Below are positions 3,599-29,621 of a stretch of DNA of 32,000 nt, in pieces. The stretch lies in the NCBI GenBank assembly GCA_021414105.1, contig JAIOPB010000059.1, forward strand, positions 41,761 to 73,760, given 5' to 3'. Below the pieces are notes generated by a model. The model was not told where the DNA came from. It searched no databases and saw only the letters and a program-made list of their open reading frames with translations. The stretch's first letter is position 1; each line of letters begins with the position of its first letter. Position numbers and translations under genes: made by a program. The DNA comes from Nitrosarchaeum sp. (GTDB taxonomy: Archaea; Thermoproteota; Nitrososphaeria; Nitrososphaerales; Nitrosopumilaceae).

Positions 3599-5194
3599 AT
3601 GGCATCAATTCAACAAACACCAAATGGACCAGTTTTAGTTCTAAAAGAGAGCGCATTACAACAAAAAGGTAAAGATGCTCAACACAACAACATAGCTGCT
3701 GCCAAACTAGTCGCTGAACTAGTTAGAAGTAGTCTAGGTCCAAGAGGTTTAGATAAAATGTTAGTTGATTCCTTAGGCGATGTTACTATTACAAATGATG
3801 GTGCAACCATTCTAAAAGAAATTGATGTTCAACACCCAGCTGCCAAAATGATGGTAGAAATTTCAAAAACAGTTGATAATGAAGTAGGAGATGGTACTAC
3901 ATCATCAGTAGTTTTCGGAGGCGCTCTTTTAGCTAGAGCAGAAGATCTTCTCAAAAAAGACGTTCACCCATCAGTAATTATTGAAGGTTATCAAGCAGCA
4001 GCTGAAAAAACACTAGAAATTTACTCTGAAATGGCAAAAAAGATCAGACCTGATGATAGAGAAACACTTCTCAAGATTGCCACAACCAGTATGCAATCAA
4101 AACTAATCTCTGAAGACAGTGATGTACTATCCAAAGTTGTAGTTGATGCAATCTTAAGAGTTGCAATAAAAAAAGCAGAGACATATTCTGTAGATCTTGA
4201 AAATATCAAAGTTGAAAAGAAAGCAGGCGGTTCTATTACAGATACTCAAATTATCAAGGGCATTGTTTTAGATAAAGAAGTTGTTCATAGTGGTATGCCA
4301 ACTAAAATTGAGAAAGCAAAGATTGCACTTTTGAATTCTGCACTAGAAATTGAAAAAACTGAGATGAGTTCAGAAATAAGAATTACTGATCCTACACAAA
4401 TGCAAATGTTTTTGGAAGAAGAAAACAGAATGCTCAAAACAATGGTTGACAAACTTCACAATGTTGGCGTTAATGTATTAATTTGTCAAAAAGGAATTGA
4501 CGATATTGCACAACACTATTTAGCAAAATATGGTATTATGGCAGTTAGACGTGTTAAAGAAAGTGACATGATAAAACTTGGCAAAGCTACTGGAGGACGT
4601 GTTATCTCTAATCTTGATGATCTTACAGAAAAAGATCTTGGCATTGCTGATATTGCTCATCAAAAGAAAGTTGAATCCGACAAGTGGGTATTCATTGAAG
4701 GATGTAAAAATCCACAATCTGTAACTTTACTTATTCGAGGCGGCTCGCAAAGAGTTATCGATGAAGTTGATCGTTCAATTCATGATTCTCTAATGGTAGT
4801 AAAAGACGTAATTGAAAAACCAGAAATTGTTGCGGGAGGCGGAGCACCAGAATCATATGCCGCATCTAAACTAAAAGACTGGGCAGATAGCTTTGATGGT
4901 AGAGAACAACTTGCAATTAAAAAATATGCAGAGGCATTGGAGGTAATTCCTCTTACAATAGCAGAAAATGCAGGAATGGATCCTATTGATACAATGGCTA
5001 CACTTAGAGCAAAACAAAATCAGGGTCGTAAATGGACAGGAATTGATGCAAGAAATACAAAAATTGCAGATATGTTAGCTATTGATGTTGTAGAGCCTCT
5101 TGTAGTAAAAGAACAGATAATCAAATCTGCAACCGAAGCTGCCTGCATGATTCTTAGAATTGATGACGTAATTTCCGTTTCTGGCGCACGATAA
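3599..5194 (+). CDS. ths: Thermosome subunit (group II chaperonin)
   Basis: 531 aa with the group II chaperonin motifs [24 protein letters not shown] and VAGGGAPE. Confidence 0.97.
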
Positions 5195-21658: not shown

Positions 21659-21680
21659 ATAAAAAGTGAAAAAATCAGCA

Positions 21681-22658
21681 ATGTCTCAGGTAAAATTCGC
21701 TATACCAAAAGGCAGTCTTGAAGAGGCAACCTTCAAACTTCTTGAGAGATCATGGACTAAAGTAAATAGAAAAGACAGAACATATCGAGTGTATCTTGAT
21801 GATCCAAACATTGTTGTAAAAATGCTCAGACCACAAGAAATTCCAACACTAGTAGCTGAAGGATTGTATGATGTTGGTATAACTGGAAAGGACTGGGTTG
21901 GTGAAACTAAAGCAGATGTTGAAGCAATATTGGATTTAGAGTATGGAAAAATTCGACTAGTTGTTGCATTTCCTGACAAATATCACTACAAAAATCTAGA
22001 TGAAATGATAGCAGACTATGCTAAAAAGAAAAAAACACTTCGTATATCATCTGAGTATCTTACTACTGCATCAAAATTTCTAAAACAATGTAAATCTTAT
22101 AAAAAATATTTTGGCACAAAAGATCCATTAATTGTGACACCTTGGGTTAGACTTGGTACAAACAAAAGTGTTCAAATTCATTTATCGTTTGGTGCTACAG
22201 AAGCAAAACCCCCTGAAGATGTTGATGCAATAATGGATGTCACTGAGACTGGAACTACACTAAAACAAAATAAATTAAAAATAGTTGATGAGATTCTAAC
22301 GTCCACTGCACATTTGATTGTTAACAAAAAATCTTTACGGGATCCACAAAAACGTGAAAAAATATTTGATATTGTAACTTTAATGCGAGGTGCTGTACGT
22401 GGAAGAAAATATCTCCACATTTACCTTAATGTAGAAGAAAAGAATCTCAAAAAACTCCTAGAGCAGATACCTTCTCTTAAAAAACCAACAATAAGTCCAC
22501 TTAGCGAAAAAGGATGGTATGGAATAAACACAGTTATTCAAAAAGAAGACTTTCACAAACTAATTCCAAAACTAAGAAAAATTGCACAGGGATTGGTAGT
22601 TCATGAACCACGACAAATTCTCGAGCTAGAGGAGATTAAGCGTGATGAAGAAAATTGA
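21681..22658 (+). CDS. hisG: ATP phosphoribosyltransferase (long form with C-terminal regulatory domain)
   Basis: FAIPKGSLEE N-terminus and the DVTETGTTLKQNKL signature. The ORF track starts at GTG 21666, but that codon lies only about 11 nt from the TATA-like element, so ATG 21681 is preferred. Confidence 0.9.
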   Translation: MSQVKFAIPKGSLEEATFKLLERSWTKVNRKDRTYRVYLDDPNIVVKMLRPQEIPTLVAEGLYDVGITGKDWVGETKADVEAILDLEYGKIRLVVAFPDKYHYKNLDEMIADYAKKKKTLRISSEYLTTASKFLKQCKSYKKYFGTKDPLIVTPWVRLGTNKSVQIHLSFGATEAKPPEDVDAIMDVTETGTTLKQNKLKIVDEILTSTAHLIVNKKSLRDPQKREKIFDIVTLMRGAVRGRKYLHIYLNVEEKNLKKLLEQIPSLKKPTISPLSEKGWYGINTVIQKEDFHKLIPKLRKIAQGLVVHEPRQILELEEIKRDEEN

Positions 22659-23929
22659 TGAAAATAATTCAAGTAGCTAATGTTGAAAAATTTGTAGCTC
22701 AAGTATTACCAAAACAGCCACAAAAAAACAAGTCTATAGTGGAATCTATTTTAAAAAATGTACAAAAAAATGGAGATTCCACCATAAAAAAATATGAGAA
22801 TAAATTCAGTGGTGCTAAAATCACTTCATTACGTTTATCAAAAACTGAAATAAAAGATGCATTTTCTAAAGTATCTAAAAATAAAATAGATGCAATACAA
22901 TTATCTAAATCAAGACTGGAGAAAACTGAGTCTGCTGTAAAATCCATCTTAAAAAACAAGTCTATTAACACAGACGGAATTAAAATTTCAAAGAAATTTG
23001 TACCGATCCAAAGTGTGGGATGTTACATTCCAGGTGGTTTAGCAAGATATCCGAGCTCTGTTATAATGTCTGTAATTCCTGCAAAAATTGCAGGAGTCAA
23101 GAGAATAGTAGTTGTATCTCCTCCTAATTCTGATGGAAAAATTGATCCATTAACTATTGTAGCTGCAGATCTATGTGGTGCAAATGAAATTTACAGAGTT
23201 GGCGGTGCTCAAGCAATTGCCGCATTATCTTTTGGCACAAAATCAATATCTAAAGTAGATAAAATAGTTGGACCCGGTGGTCCATTTGTAACACTTGCCA
23301 AGTCAATGGTTAGCGAGAGAACAGCAATTGATATGCTTGCGGGTCCTACCGAATTAGGAATTATTGCAGATGCAACTGCAAATCCAAGATATATTGCACT
23401 GGATCTCATCTCACAATCAGAGCATAGCAATGATACTTTTTGTTATTTGATAACAAATTCAGAAAAACTTGCAAAATCAGTAGATAAAATTATCACAGAT
23501 TTATCTAAGAAAATAAAGAGAAATAATTTTGTAAAAACCAGTCTTAAAGAAAATGGCTTTATTGCAATATGCAAAAATAATTCTGATATGATAAAACTTG
23601 CAAATGAATTGGCTCCGGAACACATACAAATTATGACAAAAAATCCCAATGCTTTTGCATCAAAAATCACTTCTTCTGGATTAATACTGCTAGGAAATGA
23701 CACTCCATCATCTGCAAGTGACTATCTTTTAGGCTCAAATCATATTTTGCCCACAAATGGATTTGGTAAAACAAGAGGATCGCTTTCAGTTTTGGATTTT
23801 ATCAAGGTAGACACTCAGATATCTGCTTCAAAGTCAGTTTTATCAAAAATTTCAAAACATATGAAAATATTTACCGAAGCAGAAGGACTTCCAAATCACT
23901 ATGAAGCAGTACGAGGTAGAATACAATGA
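22658..23929 (+). CDS. hisD: Histidinol dehydrogenase
   Basis: GGAQAIAA, GPGGPFV, SQSEHS and APEHIQI motifs. ATG 22658 overlaps the hisG TGA (TGATG). TTG 22655 is the alternative start. Confidence 0.95.
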   Translation: MKIIQVANVEKFVAQVLPKQPQKNKSIVESILKNVQKNGDSTIKKYENKFSGAKITSLRLSKTEIKDAFSKVSKNKIDAIQLSKSRLEKTESAVKSILKNKSINTDGIKISKKFVPIQSVGCYIPGGLARYPSSVIMSVIPAKIAGVKRIVVVSPPNSDGKIDPLTIVAADLCGANEIYRVGGAQAIAALSFGTKSISKVDKIVGPGGPFVTLAKSMVSERTAIDMLAGPTELGIIADATANPRYIALDLISQSEHSNDTFCYLITNSEKLAKSVDKIITDLSKKIKRNNFVKTSLKENGFIAICKNNSDMIKLANELAPEHIQIMTKNPNAFASKITSSGLILLGNDTPSSASDYLLGSNHILPTNGFGKTRGSLSVLDFIKVDTQISASKSVLSKISKHMKIFTEAEGLPNHYEAVRGRIQ

Positions 23930-24996
23930 AAAAAGACTGGCTTGACAAAAAAATTAAAGAATTTTCTTCTATTGGAGGATATCAAAAACCAGAGCTACAT
24001 CCTGACGCACTTAAACTTGATTCTAATGAAAACTATGTTATCTCTAAACAACTCCAACAAGATCTAATTACTAATGCCAAAAAAAATTGTGATGTAAGAG
24101 AATATCCTTTGGGCGGAGTAGAACGTTTGATCAATCAGCTATCGAAATTTCTTAAAGTACACCCTTCTATGATCGGAGTTGGAAATGGCTCTGATCAAAT
24201 ACTGGATTTAATACTTTCAAATTTTGCCTCAAAGCAAACCCAAGTTCTTACGTCAAATCCCACATTTGGATTTTTTGAAGAAAGATGTAAACTGTACTCT
24301 ATTCCTGTTACTGCAATTCCTTTTTCAAATGATATGACACTAGATGTCAAAGAATTTCTCAAAGTATCTAAAAACGCTGATATCTTGTATCTTGATTCTC
24401 CAAACAATCCAACTGGATTTCAGTTCCAAAAAAATGATTTACAAAAATTAGTAAAATCCTTTAATGGCTTAATAATAATCGATGAAGCATACGGTGAATT
24501 TGGCGATTTTTCTTTATCTAATATGGTAAAATCCCAAGAAAATCTAATTGTTGTACAAACACTCTCAAAATCATTTGGTTTAGCTGGTTTAAGATTAGGA
24601 TATTTTATTGCAAACAAAAAATTTACAGACGCTTTTAATCATGTCTTACAATATCCATATCCAGTTAGTATCCTTACAATTGAATCTGCAATTTTAGCAT
24701 TGGAGCAATCTGCTCAAATGAAAGATGCCGTCCAAATAATTAAAGAAGAGCGAAAAAGAATAATTGAAAACCTTAGAAAATATGATGCCTTTGAAGTCTT
24801 TGATTCCAAGGCTAATTTTGTACTATTTGATGCCCATGGCTCTCACAAAAGAGTCTATGATGCCCTTGCAGAACAAGGAATATCGATTAGAAAATTAGGA
24901 AAAATTGGAAAACATGATGGCTGCCTTAGAGTTACAGTTGGAACTAAGGAAATGAACTCTAAATTTTTACTTGCAATTCGTGATTTGTTAGGATAA
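23926..24996 (+). CDS. hisC: Histidinol-phosphate aminotransferase
   Basis: 356 aa with LDSNEN, PNNPTG and the PLP-lysine motif LSKSFGLAGLRLGY. ATGA overlap with hisD. Confidence 0.95.
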   Translation: MKKDWLDKKIKEFSSIGGYQKPELHPDALKLDSNENYVISKQLQQDLITNAKKNCDVREYPLGGVERLINQLSKFLKVHPSMIGVGNGSDQILDLILSNFASKQTQVLTSNPTFGFFEERCKLYSIPVTAIPFSNDMTLDVKEFLKVSKNADILYLDSPNNPTGFQFQKNDLQKLVKSFNGLIIIDEAYGEFGDFSLSNMVKSQENLIVVQTLSKSFGLAGLRLGYFIANKKFTDAFNHVLQYPYPVSILTIESAILALEQSAQMKDAVQIIKEERKRIIENLRKYDAFEVFDSKANFVLFDAHGSHKRVYDALAEQGISIRKLGKIGKHDGCLRVTVGTKEMNSKFLLAIRDLLG

Positions 24997-25967
24997 TGTT
25001 AACAAAAAAACAATCCGGAATCTATATGGATGATTCTATTTCAAATGATTTGTTATCCATAGATGGAATAGTCTTTGATTGTGATGGTGTTTTAATCGAT
25101 ATTACAAAATCTTATGATCTTGCAATAGATAAAACTGTGAAATATGTTTTAGAAAATTTTTCTCAAATTACTGACTGTATTGAAATTGATTCAAAAATTA
25201 TTGATGGATTCAAATCTAGTGGTGGATTTAATGATGAAGTTGATTTAACATATGTAGCAATTCTTTCTTTAATAGCTGCAAAAAAATTAAACAAAAATCA
25301 ACATGAGTTTATTTTTGATGTAATATCTAATGCTGATTCTTCTGGAATTTCATCTGTAGAAAAATATCTTGAGAAACTTGTAGATATAAGTGATATTAAA
25401 AACAAACTATCATATCCTGGAACTCATAATGATAATTCATTATACAAAATATTTGATCAAATATTTTATGGACCAGAACTCTATAGTAAACTCTTCAAAC
25501 AATCATCTCAATTTTCAGAATATGGTTTGATAGAAAATGATATTCTTATTGTGAATAAATCTCTAATTGAAAAACTAGAAAAAAGATTTACTTCAAAACT
25601 TTCAATTGTATCTGGACGAGGAAAAGAATCAATTCGATATTCTCTCAAACTATTATTGGATAAATTTGATCTGAAAAACTCTGCATTCTTAGAAGATGAA
25701 CCAAGAGAACTTGCAAAACCCAATCCTGAATCTTTAGTTAGTTCAATTAATGGCATGAATTGTAGTCATTGTATTTACGTTGGAGACTCGATGGAGGATT
25801 TTATCATGGCTAAAAAGGCCACAGAGCAAGGCTGCAAAACCATCTTTTGTGGAATTATAGGAACCAGCAAAAACCCACAAGACAAACTGGAATTATTTCA
25901 GCGCAATGGGGCTTTGTTGGTATTGGAATCTATCAATTTACTTCCGAAGGTATTAAATTTAGAATAA
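24996..25967 (+). CDS. HAD-superfamily hydrolase with unusually large cap insertion; candidate histidinol-phosphate phosphatase
   Basis: All four HAD motifs are present: [37 protein letters not shown]. About 170 aa separate motifs I and II. The start ATG overlaps the hisC TAA by 1 nt (TAATG). The phosphatase role is inferred from operon position only. Confidence 0.85.
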
Positions 25968-25993
25968 GACAAAGCACAGCTCCTGTGAAAAAT

Positions 25994-26581
25994 ATGACGC
26001 CCAGAAAAAGCTCTGTAAACCGTAGTACAAAAGAAACCAGCGTATCTGTATCTGTTAATTTGGATGGAGCTGGAAAAACCACAATTCAAACTGGAATTAA
26101 TTTTCTTGATCATCTAATCACATCCTTTGGAAAACACGGGATGATGGATCTTAAGGTTAGTGCAAAATCAAATGATAAAATCACACACCACTTGATTGAA
26201 GATACTGCAATTACTATAGGCTTGGCCATTGACAAAGCTCTGGGAACAAGACGCGGCATTACTAGATTTAGTTATGCATCTGTACCAATGGATGAATCTC
26301 TAGCTGAGGCTTCAATTGATCTAGTAAAAAGACCATTTTGGAAACTAGTCTTGTCAATTAAACGAAATACAATTGAAGACATCTCAAAAGAAGATTTGGA
26401 ACATTTTTTCCAATCGCTTCTTCAAAACCTAAACAGCTGTATTCATCTTACTGTAAAGTATGGAGACAATGATCATCACAAAGTAGAAGCTGCCATAAAA
26501 TCACTAGCTGTTGCATTTAGAGAAGCATCTTCATACGACAAAAAACAAAAAGGCATTCCTAGTACAAAAGGTTCAATGTAA
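25994..26581 (+). CDS. hisB: Imidazoleglycerol-phosphate dehydratase
   Basis: [27 protein letters not shown] and the NDHHKVEA metal motifs. I chose ATG 25994. The ORF-track start at 25847 would add 49 non-homologous residues overlapping the HAD gene. Confidence 0.93.
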
Positions 26582-27190
26582 ATGGTACATCTTGCAATAT
26601 TTGATTATGGTGCTGGAAATATTTTCAGCCTAAAAAACTCACTTGAAAAAACAGGAGCTACTGTAGATGTTATCACTAATTTTGACAAGCCAAATATTTA
26701 TTCTGGGCTCTTACTTCCAGGAGTTGGGAATTTTGATCCTGCAATCAAAAGCATACGTAAATCATCAAAAACTAACTTTAATGATTATGTCAAAGATAGC
26801 ACTCCTGTTTTAGGAATTTGTCTTGGTATGGAAATGTTTTTTGAGAAAAGTGAAGAAGGAAATGAAAAGGGATTGGGTGTAATTAATGGCGATGTAATTA
26901 TTCTTCCATCATCAATGAAAGTTCCACATATGGGATGGAATAATTTAGAAATTAAAAAATCTGGTACAATACTTGAAGGAGTAAATGACAATGCTTGGGT
27001 TTATTTTGTACACTCGTACAGTGTAAAACCTACAAACAATGATATAATTACAGCAGAATCTGATTATGGAATTAAAGTACCTGCAGTTGTTGAGCAAGGT
27101 AACTTTTTTGGAACACAGTTTCATCCAGAAAAATCTGGCAAAGTAGGAAAAATCATGATTCAAAACTTTCTAGATGTGTGTAAAAAATGA
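26582..27190 (+). CDS. hisH: Imidazole glycerol phosphate synthase, glutamine amidotransferase subunit
   Basis: Catalytic GICLGMEMF and FGTQFHPEKS motifs. It starts immediately after the hisB TAA. Confidence 0.95.
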   Translation: MVHLAIFDYGAGNIFSLKNSLEKTGATVDVITNFDKPNIYSGLLLPGVGNFDPAIKSIRKSSKTNFNDYVKDSTPVLGICLGMEMFFEKSEEGNEKGLGVINGDVIILPSSMKVPHMGWNNLEIKKSGTILEGVNDNAWVYFVHSYSVKPTNNDIITAESDYGIKVPAVVEQGNFFGTQFHPEKSGKVGKIMIQNFLDVCKK

Positions 27191-27894
27191 AAGTTATTCC
27201 TGCAATTGATCTGATGAATGGTCAAGTAGTACGACTCTACAAAGGTGATCCTAACCAGAAAACTGTGTACAGTGATAATCCCATTGAAGTAGCAAAAAAA
27301 TGGGAAGCAAATGGTGCTGATATGCTTCACTTGGTAGATCTAGATGCAACTTTGGGTAGGGGCTCAAATCTTTTGATAATTAAAAAAATTCTTGAACAGA
27401 TCTCAATCCCAATTCAAGTCGCTGGTGGACTAAGAGATGAATCAATAATAACTGATGTTTCAAAAATTTCTAATAGGGTTGTTTTAGGTACATTTGCATT
27501 CAAAGACAAATCTACACTAAAAAAATTATTGTCTAATTTGGGACCTGAAAAAATTGTAATCTCTGTTGATCATATAGATGGTGAGATAGTGATACATGGA
27601 TGGCAAAAACAAACTGGCATTAAATTAATTGACGCTATGCAAGAATTTCTTGCAATGGGGTTTTCTGAATTTTTATTAACAAATGTTAGTCGTGATGGAA
27701 CGTTGCAAGGACCTGATTTGGAATTTTTAGAGCAAGCATGTCAATTAGATAAATCACATGTGATTGCAAGCGGAGGAATTTCAAATATAAAAGACATACA
27801 AGATGTAAAACAAAAAAATGCATTTGGAGTAATACTGGGTAAAGCACTTTATGAGAATAAAATTTCAATTGAGGAGGCAAAACAAATAGCATGA
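27187..27894 (+). CDS. hisA: ProFAR isomerase (1-(5-phosphoribosyl)-5-[(5-phosphoribosylamino)methylideneamino]imidazole-4-carboxamide isomerase)
   Basis: [20 protein letters not shown]-terminus, VAGGLR and ASGGIS motifs. ATGA overlap with hisH. Confidence 0.95.
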
Positions 27895-28694
27895 CTCTTA
27901 CAAAAAGAATAATTCCATGCCTTGATGTAAAAAATGGACGAGTAGTAAAGGGTCTACATTTTGAATCAATTAAAGATGCAGGAGACCCTGTAGAACTGGC
28001 TGAAAAATATAGTAATGAAGGTGCAGATGAACTTGTTTTTTTGGATATTACTGCATCTGATGAACAAAGAAAAACAATCAAGGATTTGGTTAGAAAAGTT
28101 GCAACAGTAATTGACATTCCATTTACAGTTGGTGGTGGTGTAAAATCATTGGAAGATGCAAGAAATATTTTACTTAATGGTGCTGACAAAGTAGGAATCA
28201 ACACAGGTGCAATAAAAAATCCTCAAGTTATTACTGAACTAATGGAATTATTTGGAAGACAATGTATTGTAATTGCAATTGATGCGAAAAGGAATTTTGA
28301 TATTCAAAAAGACAAAAACATTTTTTCTGAGAATGGAAAACAATTCTGGTTTGAAGTCTTCATTTATGGTGGAAAAGAAGCAACTGGCATTGATGTCATT
28401 GAATGGGCAAAAAAAGCTGAAAAACTGGGTGCAGGAGAAATACTTCTCACCAGCATTGATAAAGATGGTACAAAAGATGGATATGATATTTTATTAAATA
28501 AAGAAATTGCTAATTCTGTATCTATTCCAGTTATTGCATCTGGTGGATGTGGCAAACCCGATGATATGGTTGATGTCTTTAAGAAATCAAACGTTGATGC
28601 TGCTCTGGCAGCTTCTATATTTCACTATCAAACTCATGGTGTGAATGGAGTAAAGATGTATCTTAAAGACAAACAAATTCCTGTAAGATTATAA
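27891..28694 (+). CDS. hisF: Imidazole glycerol phosphate synthase, cyclase subunit
   Basis: [22 protein letters not shown] and ASGGCG motifs. ATGA overlap with hisA. Confidence 0.97.
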
Positions 28695-28717
28695 GCTATA
28701 CTTTGTGATTTAAAATA

Positions 28718-29047
28718 ATGAAAAAATCAATCGCTGATATTGATTTTGCAAAAAGTGACGGACTTGTTCCAGTAATTGTTCAAGACGCAAATACAAAAGA
28801 TGTGTTAACCCTAGCTTACTCTAACAAAGAATCACTTGAATTAACTAAAAAAACTGGTAACTCTTGGTTTTGGAGTCGTTCTAGAAACAAACTTTGGATG
28901 AAAGGTGAAGAATCTGGTAACACACAAAAAGTAAAAGAAATTCTTGTTGATTGTGATTCTGATGCAATTATTTATCTTGTAGAACCATCAGGACCAGCTT
29001 GTCATACTGGCGAGAAAGTTTGCTTTCATAATAACTTGGACAAATAA
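28718..29047 (+). CDS. hisI: Phosphoribosyl-AMP cyclohydrolase (monofunctional, no HisE domain)
   Basis: 109 aa with [31 protein letters not shown] and [12 protein letters not shown]. Confidence 0.93.
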
Positions 29048-29048
29048 T

Positions 29049-29621
29049 CTAACAAACAGGTTCGATATCTGTTCCTGGAACAACATCTTTTGTTATCTCA
29101 AAATTTAGATTTGTATAATCTGTCCCTCTGAAAACCATTACCCACTTTCCTGTTATGTCATCAACTGAACATATTCCTCTAATTTTTGAAATTTGAGGAT
29201 TTAGATAATAATTGAATACTGGTTTTGTAGCTCCATCAAATGGAATGGTCAAATATACTGAGTAATGTGTATCATTTAGTGGTCTCATAACTGCAATCTG
29301 ACCTTTTTCGTTTGCATGCAATCCGTTCATTATTAGGAAAATCTTCTCACCTATGGCATATTGGCTTCGATCAATTTGAAACGGTCCTGAGCTAATCCAC
29401 TCTCTTTCTTTTGGTGAATACTCATTTTCCAAATTAATTTTTTCAATTTCATTTAATTTTTCTTGAATCTTTGTATTCTCCGTTTCTGGTTTTACTTCCT
29501 TATCTAATGTATCTTCAACTTCTATCACATCTGATTTCGTACTAGATATCAAAACTACAGCTAAAATAATTACAAAAATACTGACTCCTACTGCAATACC
29601 TATGCCCAGTCCTTTTTTCAT
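29049..29621 (-). CDS. Hypothetical membrane-anchored or secreted protein
   Basis: 190 aa with an N-terminal KKGLGIGIAVGVSIFVIILAVVLI helix, an acidic/lysine-rich linker and a C-terminal domain of about 120 aa containing two Cys. I recognised no family. Confidence 0.55.
   Translation of the reverse strand: MKKGLGIGIAVGVSIFVIILAVVLISSTKSDVIEVEDTLDKEVKPETENTKIQEKLNEIEKINLENEYSPKEREWISSGPFQIDRSQYAIGEKIFLIMNGLHANEKGQIAVMRPLNDTHYSVYLTIPFDGATKPVFNYYLNPQISKIRGICSVDDITGKWVMVFRGTDYTNLNFEITKDVVPGTDIEPVC

What the first reader, a model, noticed from the sequence alone, without database searches (positions are those of the whole stretch)
24996..25967. Large-cap HAD hydrolase between hisC and hisB: candidate non-orthologous histidinol-phosphate phosphatase
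**Seen in the sequence.**
- A 323-aa ORF has the complete HAD catalytic motifs: DxD in [19 protein letters not shown] and GDSMEDF.
- An insertion of about 170 aa lies between motifs I and II.
- Its ATG overlaps the hisC stop (TAATG), and it ends 26 nt before hisB.

**Established knowledge.**
- Histidinol-phosphate phosphatase is the one histidine-pathway step with several unrelated solutions: the HisB-N DDDD-type HAD domain in enterobacteria, PHP-family HisJ/HisK, and IMPase-like HisN.
- It is often unassigned in archaeal genomes.
- In E. coli the HAD phosphatase domain is fused to the N-terminus of the HisB dehydratase. That is the same order as this gene followed by hisB.

**Inference.** This protein supplies the missing step using a different HAD subfamily with a much larger cap domain.
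Basis: partly seen in the sequence, partly recalled or inferred. Interest (0 to 1): 0.6.

Follow-up and report, generated by a model that had tools for sequence, protein, structure and literature searches.

The report
Known archaeal histidine-pathway phosphatase (HisN)
This gene encodes the enzyme that removes a phosphate in the second-to-last stage of making the amino acid histidine in an ammonia-oxidising archaeon; the guess was right, but the same enzyme was already purified and proven in a close relative in 2024, so it is ordinary.

Summary
The 323-aa ORF (24996-25967) sits in a hisG-D-C-[HAD]-B-H-A-F-I operon; its nearest homologues are Nitrosarchaeum proteins. It is 61% identical over 300 residues to the Nitrosopumilus maritimus protein in the same hisC-hisB slot. 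Kinateder et al. 2024 (PMC10804674) purified that protein (Nmar_1556, nmHisN) and showed histidinol-phosphate phosphatase activity: kcat 0.79/s, KM 73 uM, nine other phosphoesters not hydrolysed. All seven cap residues they mutated are identical here, including the Y-D-K-E fingerprint. The gene is in 115/115 near-complete family genomes and stays with his genes. No PHP or HisB-N phosphatase was found in this genome (92% complete), and its two IMPase-fold genes score better as CysQ and FBPase/IMPase. Two side results: bacterial relatives (TIGR01548-like) are fused to HisC in over 100 clusters and once to HisC and HisB, which supports the function of the untested Y-R-K-D variant; and no canonical hisE was found in the family, so that is the open gap. 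The scan noted this gene before in two other genomes.

The parts
24996..25967 (+). hisN: HAD-superfamily (C1 cap) histidinol-phosphate phosphatase, nmHisN type, 323 aa
   Evidence: 61% identity to N. maritimus ABX13452.1; fingerprint intact; PMC10804674
25077..25085 (+). HAD motif I, D28-x-D30 (nucleophile and acid/base)
   Evidence: invariant in alignment A1
25101..25238 (+). substrate-specificity residues I36, Y40, D41, I44, I69, K73, E81 (= nmHisN I20, Y24, D25, I28, I52, K56, E64)
25104..25538 (+). all-helical C1 cap, about residues 37-181
   Evidence: AlphaFold model
25611..25799 (+). HAD motifs II (S206), III (K241), IV (D264, D268)
23926..24996 (+). hisC, histidinol-phosphate transaminase: makes the substrate; its stop overlaps the hisN ATG
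   Evidence: TIGR01141 287 bits, above cut-off
25994..26581 (+). hisB, monofunctional imidazoleglycerol-phosphate dehydratase with no phosphatase domain
   Evidence: PF00475 only; matches positions 164-354 of the bifunctional HisB model
22655..23929 (+). hisD, histidinol dehydrogenase: consumes the product
   Evidence: TIGR00069 above cut-off
21666..29047 (+). whole cluster hisG-D-C-N-B-H-A-F-I; no hisE

Best explanation
The protein is the monofunctional L-histidinol-phosphate phosphatase (HisN, EC 3.1.3.15) of this archaeon, the orthologue of N. maritimus nmHisN. HisC makes histidinol phosphate. The Rossmann core binds Mg2+ (D28, D264, D268) and the phosphate (S206, K241); D28 attacks phosphorus to form an aspartyl-phosphate, and D30 acts as acid and base (standard HAD chemistry, inferred). 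The helical cap closes over the site and selects the substrate through Y40, D41, K73 and E81 (importance shown by alanine scan in the orthologue; contacts there come from docking). Histidinol then goes to HisD. Shown here: sequence, motifs, orthology, synteny, predicted fold. Shown in the orthologue: activity, specificity, monomer. Inferred: activity of this particular protein and co-transcription.
For: 61% identity over 300 residues with one gap to ABX13452.1 from N. maritimus, same hisC-hisB slot. That protein's residues I20, Y24, D25, I28, I52, K56, E64 match the paper's numbering, so it is Nmar_1556. Kinetics and nine negative substrates in PMC10804674. All seven residues are identical in the query; Y-D-K-E in 119/121 close homologues. 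Present in 143/151 family genomes and 115/115 near-complete ones. hisC directly upstream in all 29 closest other genomes and in 17/20 loci chosen mostly for divergence. When the operon splits the gene stays with hisGDC (L034-L036, L046, L049) or with hisBHAF (L059, L076). In a phylum sample all 69 genomes with this family also have IGPD and none of the 36 without IGPD has it (background 82%, kin not independent). No PHP or HisB-N in the genome. Bacterial relatives are fused to HisC, once also to HisB.
Against: This protein was not assayed. The genome is 91.6% complete, so a second HolPase could lie in missing DNA. 7 of 20 distant phylum loci and the haloarchaeal homologues are not next to his genes within the flanks read. 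No in vivo knockout or complementation is reported in the sections of the paper I read.
Confidence: 0.96

Rival explanations
1. It is a broad-specificity HAD (phosphoglycolate phosphatase-like or a house-cleaning phosphatase) that happens to lie in the operon, and another gene (an IMPase-fold protein or SerB) is the physiological HolPase.
For: Automatic names include 'phosphoglycolate phosphatase-like'; weak PGP and PpaX model hits; two IMPase-fold genes and a SerB exist in the genome.
Against: PGP models score under 20 bits against cut-offs of 180-415. The IMPase-fold genes score best as CysQ (193 bits) and FBPase/IMPase (216 bits), and only 125 and 64 bits on HisN model TIGR02067 (cut-off 275). 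The SerB passes its own cut-off. The orthologue did not hydrolyse nine other phosphoesters.
Confidence: 0.03
2. It is a HolPase that also covers a second his step, the PR-ATP pyrophosphohydrolase (HisE) that has no canonical gene here.
For: No PF01503 match in this genome; only weak matches in 15/61 family genomes; HisI is 109 aa, cyclohydrolase only; PR-ATP was not among the substrates tested on nmHisN.
Against: nmHisN did not act on ATP or PRPP. HisE chemistry belongs to all-alpha NTP pyrophosphatases (established knowledge), and a short dUTPase_2-like protein of that superfamily is present at G000:C30:65481-65825, a better candidate.
Confidence: 0.03

Closest known systems
nmHisN (Nmar_1556; ABX13452.1 / A9A5X4), HolPase of Nitrosopumilus maritimus (Kinateder et al. 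2024, PMC10804674)
   Same: 61% identity, same operon slot, same large helical C1 cap, all seven scanned cap residues identical, same catalytic motifs.
   Different: 323 aa against 306 aa (longer N-terminus); Ser instead of Thr in motif II; ATG overlaps the hisC stop. Not itself assayed.
toHisN of Thermococcus onnurineus (Lee et al. 2008, as cited in PMC10804674) and PDB 6IAH 'Phosphatase Tt82' of T. thioreducens
   Same: Same HAD family with one helical cap; 6IAH is the best PDB sequence match (E 9e-9 alone, 2e-27 with the profile), second by fold, and carries the Y-D-R-D form of the fingerprint.
   Different: About 240 aa, smaller cap, about 22-24% identity. That 6IAH is a toHisN orthologue is my inference; I did not have the toHisN sequence.
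TIGR01548 (HAD-SF-IA-hyp1)
   Same: Best NCBIfam hit, E 6e-21, covering the whole model; bacterial members carry Y-R-K-D and are fused to HisC.
   Different: 74.9 bits is under the 140.2 cut-off; nmHisN scores about the same, 76.9. The fused domains have a motif I-II spacing of about 107 residues against 178.
E. coli HisB-N (HAD-IIIA, TIGR01656)
   Same: Same reaction, same HAD core chemistry, lies just before the dehydratase.
   Different: 20.9 bits against a cut-off of 84; small caps with a zinc motif against one large helical cap; fused against separate; independently evolved (PMC10804674).
PDB 1QYI (Q8NW41, structural genomics target ZR25, function not assigned in the entry)
   Same: Top Foldseek match, TM 0.70 by query; profile E 6e-14.
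   Different: 18% identity; its motif-I region reads differently at the Y40 position (F), so function cannot be transferred either way.

Membership tests
nmHisN-type archaeal HolPase (Kinateder 2024, cluster I) | More than 45% identity link to nmHisN (the network threshold) | tested here: met
   61% over 300 residues
nmHisN-type archaeal HolPase (Kinateder 2024, cluster I) | Fingerprint Y24, D25, K56, E64 | tested here: met
   Y40, D41, K73, E81
nmHisN-type archaeal HolPase (Kinateder 2024, cluster I) | Accessory hydrophobic residues I28, I52 | tested here: met
   I44, I69
nmHisN-type archaeal HolPase (Kinateder 2024, cluster I) | One large helical insertion (nine helices predicted) after motif I | tested here: met
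   Eight helices of 4 or more residues plus one short helix between residues 37 and 181, pLDDT 96.4
nmHisN-type archaeal HolPase (Kinateder 2024, cluster I) | Gene between hisC and hisB | tested here: met
nmHisN-type archaeal HolPase (Kinateder 2024, cluster I) | Mg-dependent hydrolysis of L-histidinol phosphate | not testable with these tools
   Shown only for the orthologue
HAD superfamily, subfamily I (C1 cap) | Motifs I-IV with the cap between I and II | tested here: met
   D28/D30, S206, K241, D264/D268; PF00702 and TIGR01549 above cut-off
TIGR01548 | Score above 140.2 bits | tested here: not met
   74.9 bits; a related branch, not a member by cut-off
HisB-N / GmhB (HAD-IIIA) | TIGR01656 above 84.15 bits; no large C1 cap | tested here: not met
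   20.9 bits; large cap
Phosphoglycolate phosphatase / beta-PGM | Equivalog model cut-offs | tested here: not met
   17-20 bits against 153-415

The most novel reading that the evidence does not exclude
The protein is bifunctional: besides histidinol phosphate it hydrolyses phosphoribosyl-ATP, filling the HisE step for which no canonical gene was found in this genome or in the family genomes searched.
Probability: 0.03. Interest if true: 0.55.

Novelty: already known. Interest (0 to 1): 0.1.

Why it matters
For this gene, only annotation: databases still call it 'HAD family hydrolase' or 'phosphoglycolate phosphatase-like', and it should be hisN. Two by-products have modest value. The HisC-HAD and HisC-HAD-HisB fusions in Planctomycetota, Myxococcota and other bacteria are independent evidence that the Y-R-K-D variant, which the 2024 paper could assign only with doubt, is also a HolPase; I found no paper on these fusions in two library searches, which is weak evidence of novelty. 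And the step still unassigned in these archaea is HisE.

Tried and rejected
Long open frames (479-677 aa) over the HAD in some family genomes looked like fusions with HisC or HisB; they are overlapping stop-free frames in GC-rich genomes, with separate hisC and hisB genes. A motif-I regular expression over the genome found only two HADs and missed SerB, so it was replaced by HMM searches. Sigma-70 promoter and terminator scan of the junctions: at chance level and not suited to archaea. Literature searches for 6IAH, TIGR01548, hisE in Thaumarchaeota and HisC-phosphatase fusions gave nothing relevant. No supplementary files were held for the key paper, so the Nmar_1556 sequence was not read from it. 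No MazG (PF03819) match in the genome. No complex prediction was run: the orthologue is a monomer and no binding is claimed.

Full report
Observation. The ORF is real: 24996-25967 on the + strand, 323 aa. The HAD motifs fall at D28/D30, S206, K241 and D264/D268. Its ATG shares a base with the hisC stop (TAATG), and 26 nt separate its stop from the hisB ATG at 25994. The neighbours are HisG, HisD, HisC, a dehydratase-only HisB, HisH, HisA, HisF and a 109-aa HisI. The closest of 3619 homologues are 79-94% identical and, where named, come from Nitrosarchaeum. The genome is 1.29 Mb, 33% GC and 91.6% complete.

Family. Pfam and NCBIfam place it in HAD subfamily IA. The best model is TIGR01548 at 74.9 bits, under its cut-off of 140.2; HisB-N, PGP and beta-PGM models score about 20 bits, far below theirs. 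AlphaFold gives a confident model (pLDDT 96.4) with a Rossmann core and one all-helical cap over about residues 37-181. Foldseek ranks 1QYI and 6IAH (Thermococcus phosphatase Tt82) first, then generic C1-cap HADs.

It is already characterised in a relative. Kinateder et al. 2024 (PMC10804674) took the gene between hisC and hisB of Nitrosopumilus maritimus, Nmar_1556, purified it and measured histidinol-phosphate phosphatase activity: kcat 0.79/s, KM 73 uM with Mg2+, six-fold lower efficiency with Mn2+, monomer, and no turnover of nine other phosphorylated compounds. They named it nmHisN. An alanine scan defined the fingerprint Y24-D25-K56-E64 with accessory I28 and I52. A similarity network assigned most of a 154-sequence thaumarchaeal and bathyarchaeal cluster as HolPases.

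Orthology test. I pulled the homologue from a 1,645,259-bp genome. The exact look-up names it N. maritimus ABX13452.1. It lies between hisC and hisB, and its residues 20, 24, 25, 28, 52, 56 and 64 are I, Y, D, I, I, K, E as in the paper's table, so it is Nmar_1556, although no tool printed the locus tag. The query is 61% identical to it over 300 residues with one gap. All seven residues are identical: I36, Y40, D41, I44, I69, K73, E81. Y-D-K-E is kept in 119 of 121 close homologues.

The gene is in 143 of 151 family genomes and in all 115 near-complete ones. hisC lies directly upstream in all 29 closest other genomes and in 17 of 20 further loci chosen mostly for divergence. Where the operon has split, the gene remains with hisGDC or with hisBHAF. 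At phylum level 13 of 20 distant loci are his-linked and 7 are not within about 5 kb. All 69 sampled genomes that have the family also have IGPD, and none of the 36 without IGPD has it; 96 genomes with IGPD lack a match at E 1e-10 and must use something else or a more distant form (kin are not independent). In this genome no PHP domain and no HisB-N were found. The two IMPase-fold genes score best as CysQ and FBPase/IMPase and far below the HisN cut-off. Of the other HAD matches, the strongest is SerB; the two weaker ones were not classified by a model.

Fusion evidence. A Myxococcales locus has a 572-aa HisC-HAD protein inside a his operon; its HAD part passes the TIGR01548 cut-off. A search for longer proteins returned 211 hits; the best 120 all carry an aminotransferase domain with the HAD, with names from Planctomycetota, Myxococcota and Bradymonadia, and one 768-aa protein is HisC-HAD-HisB. 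Of 118 fused domains, 102 have Y-R-K-D, and all 118 are hit by the profile of the query family (E 1e-10 or better for at least 110). This supports the function across the wider family and speaks to the D25R variant that the paper left in doubt.

Mechanism. HisC supplies histidinol phosphate; Mg2+-assisted attack by D28 gives an aspartyl-phosphate that is then hydrolysed, with D30 as acid and base (established HAD chemistry, inferred here). The cap residues Y40, D41, K73 and E81 select the substrate (mutational evidence in the orthologue). HisD oxidises the histidinol. Confidence 0.96. The rivals, a generic phosphatase or an added HisE role, get about 0.03 each.

Remaining gap. Its counterpart here is at C30:65481-65825. 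It belongs to the same all-alpha superfamily as HisE (own knowledge) and is an untested candidate.

Verdict. Real, correctly guessed, already known. Interest 0.1.

Noticed in passing
L074:2948-4666; proteins P0282-P0401: HisC fused to a TIGR01548-type HAD in over 100 bacterial clusters (Planctomycetota, Myxococcota, Bradymonadia), mostly with the Y-R-K-D fingerprint; P0355 (768 aa, Deltaproteobacteria) is a triple HisC-HAD-HisB fusion. Points to TIGR01548 being a HolPase family.
   Followed up: partly
window 21666-29047 and whole genome: No canonical hisE (PF01503) in this genome or as a strong match in 60 family genomes; HisI is cyclohydrolase only.
   Followed up: partly
G000:C30:65481-65825 (+); L134-L139: Short (about 115 aa) dUTPase_2-like all-alpha protein with a weak PRA-PH match, next to an MtrA-domain gene, a PfkB kinase and a DegT aminotransferase; an untested HisE candidate.
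   Followed up: partly
PDB 6IAH: 'Phosphatase Tt82' of Thermococcus thioreducens carries the Y-D-R-D fingerprint of toHisN and may be an unrecognised crystal structure of this HolPase family.
   Followed up: partly
L039 (G012:C1) and L040 (G037:C1): In one genus the hisN homologue appears in two or three identical copies in 6.2-kb tandem repeats beside a very long exported-looking ORF at the contig ends, away from his genes; possibly an assembly artefact.
   Followed up: no
L061:1-777 and 3959-5080: A Bathyarchaeia locus has two paralogues of this HAD flanking hisB-H-A-F-I; the second has Y-P-K-D.
   Followed up: no
L004, L019, L043, L044: About 1.1-1.2 kb of other DNA lies between hisN and hisB in these genomes.
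   Followed up: no
L065, L116, L119: In Caldarchaeum-like genomes the Y-D-R-D homologue lies beside genes that look like other amino-acid biosynthesis genes (homoserine kinase-like, isopropylmalate dehydrogenase-like by eye) rather than his genes.
   Followed up: no
window 29049-29621 (-): 190-aa ORF convergent with hisI has no NCBIfam match but is conserved at this position in several relatives (31-61% identity).
   Followed up: partly
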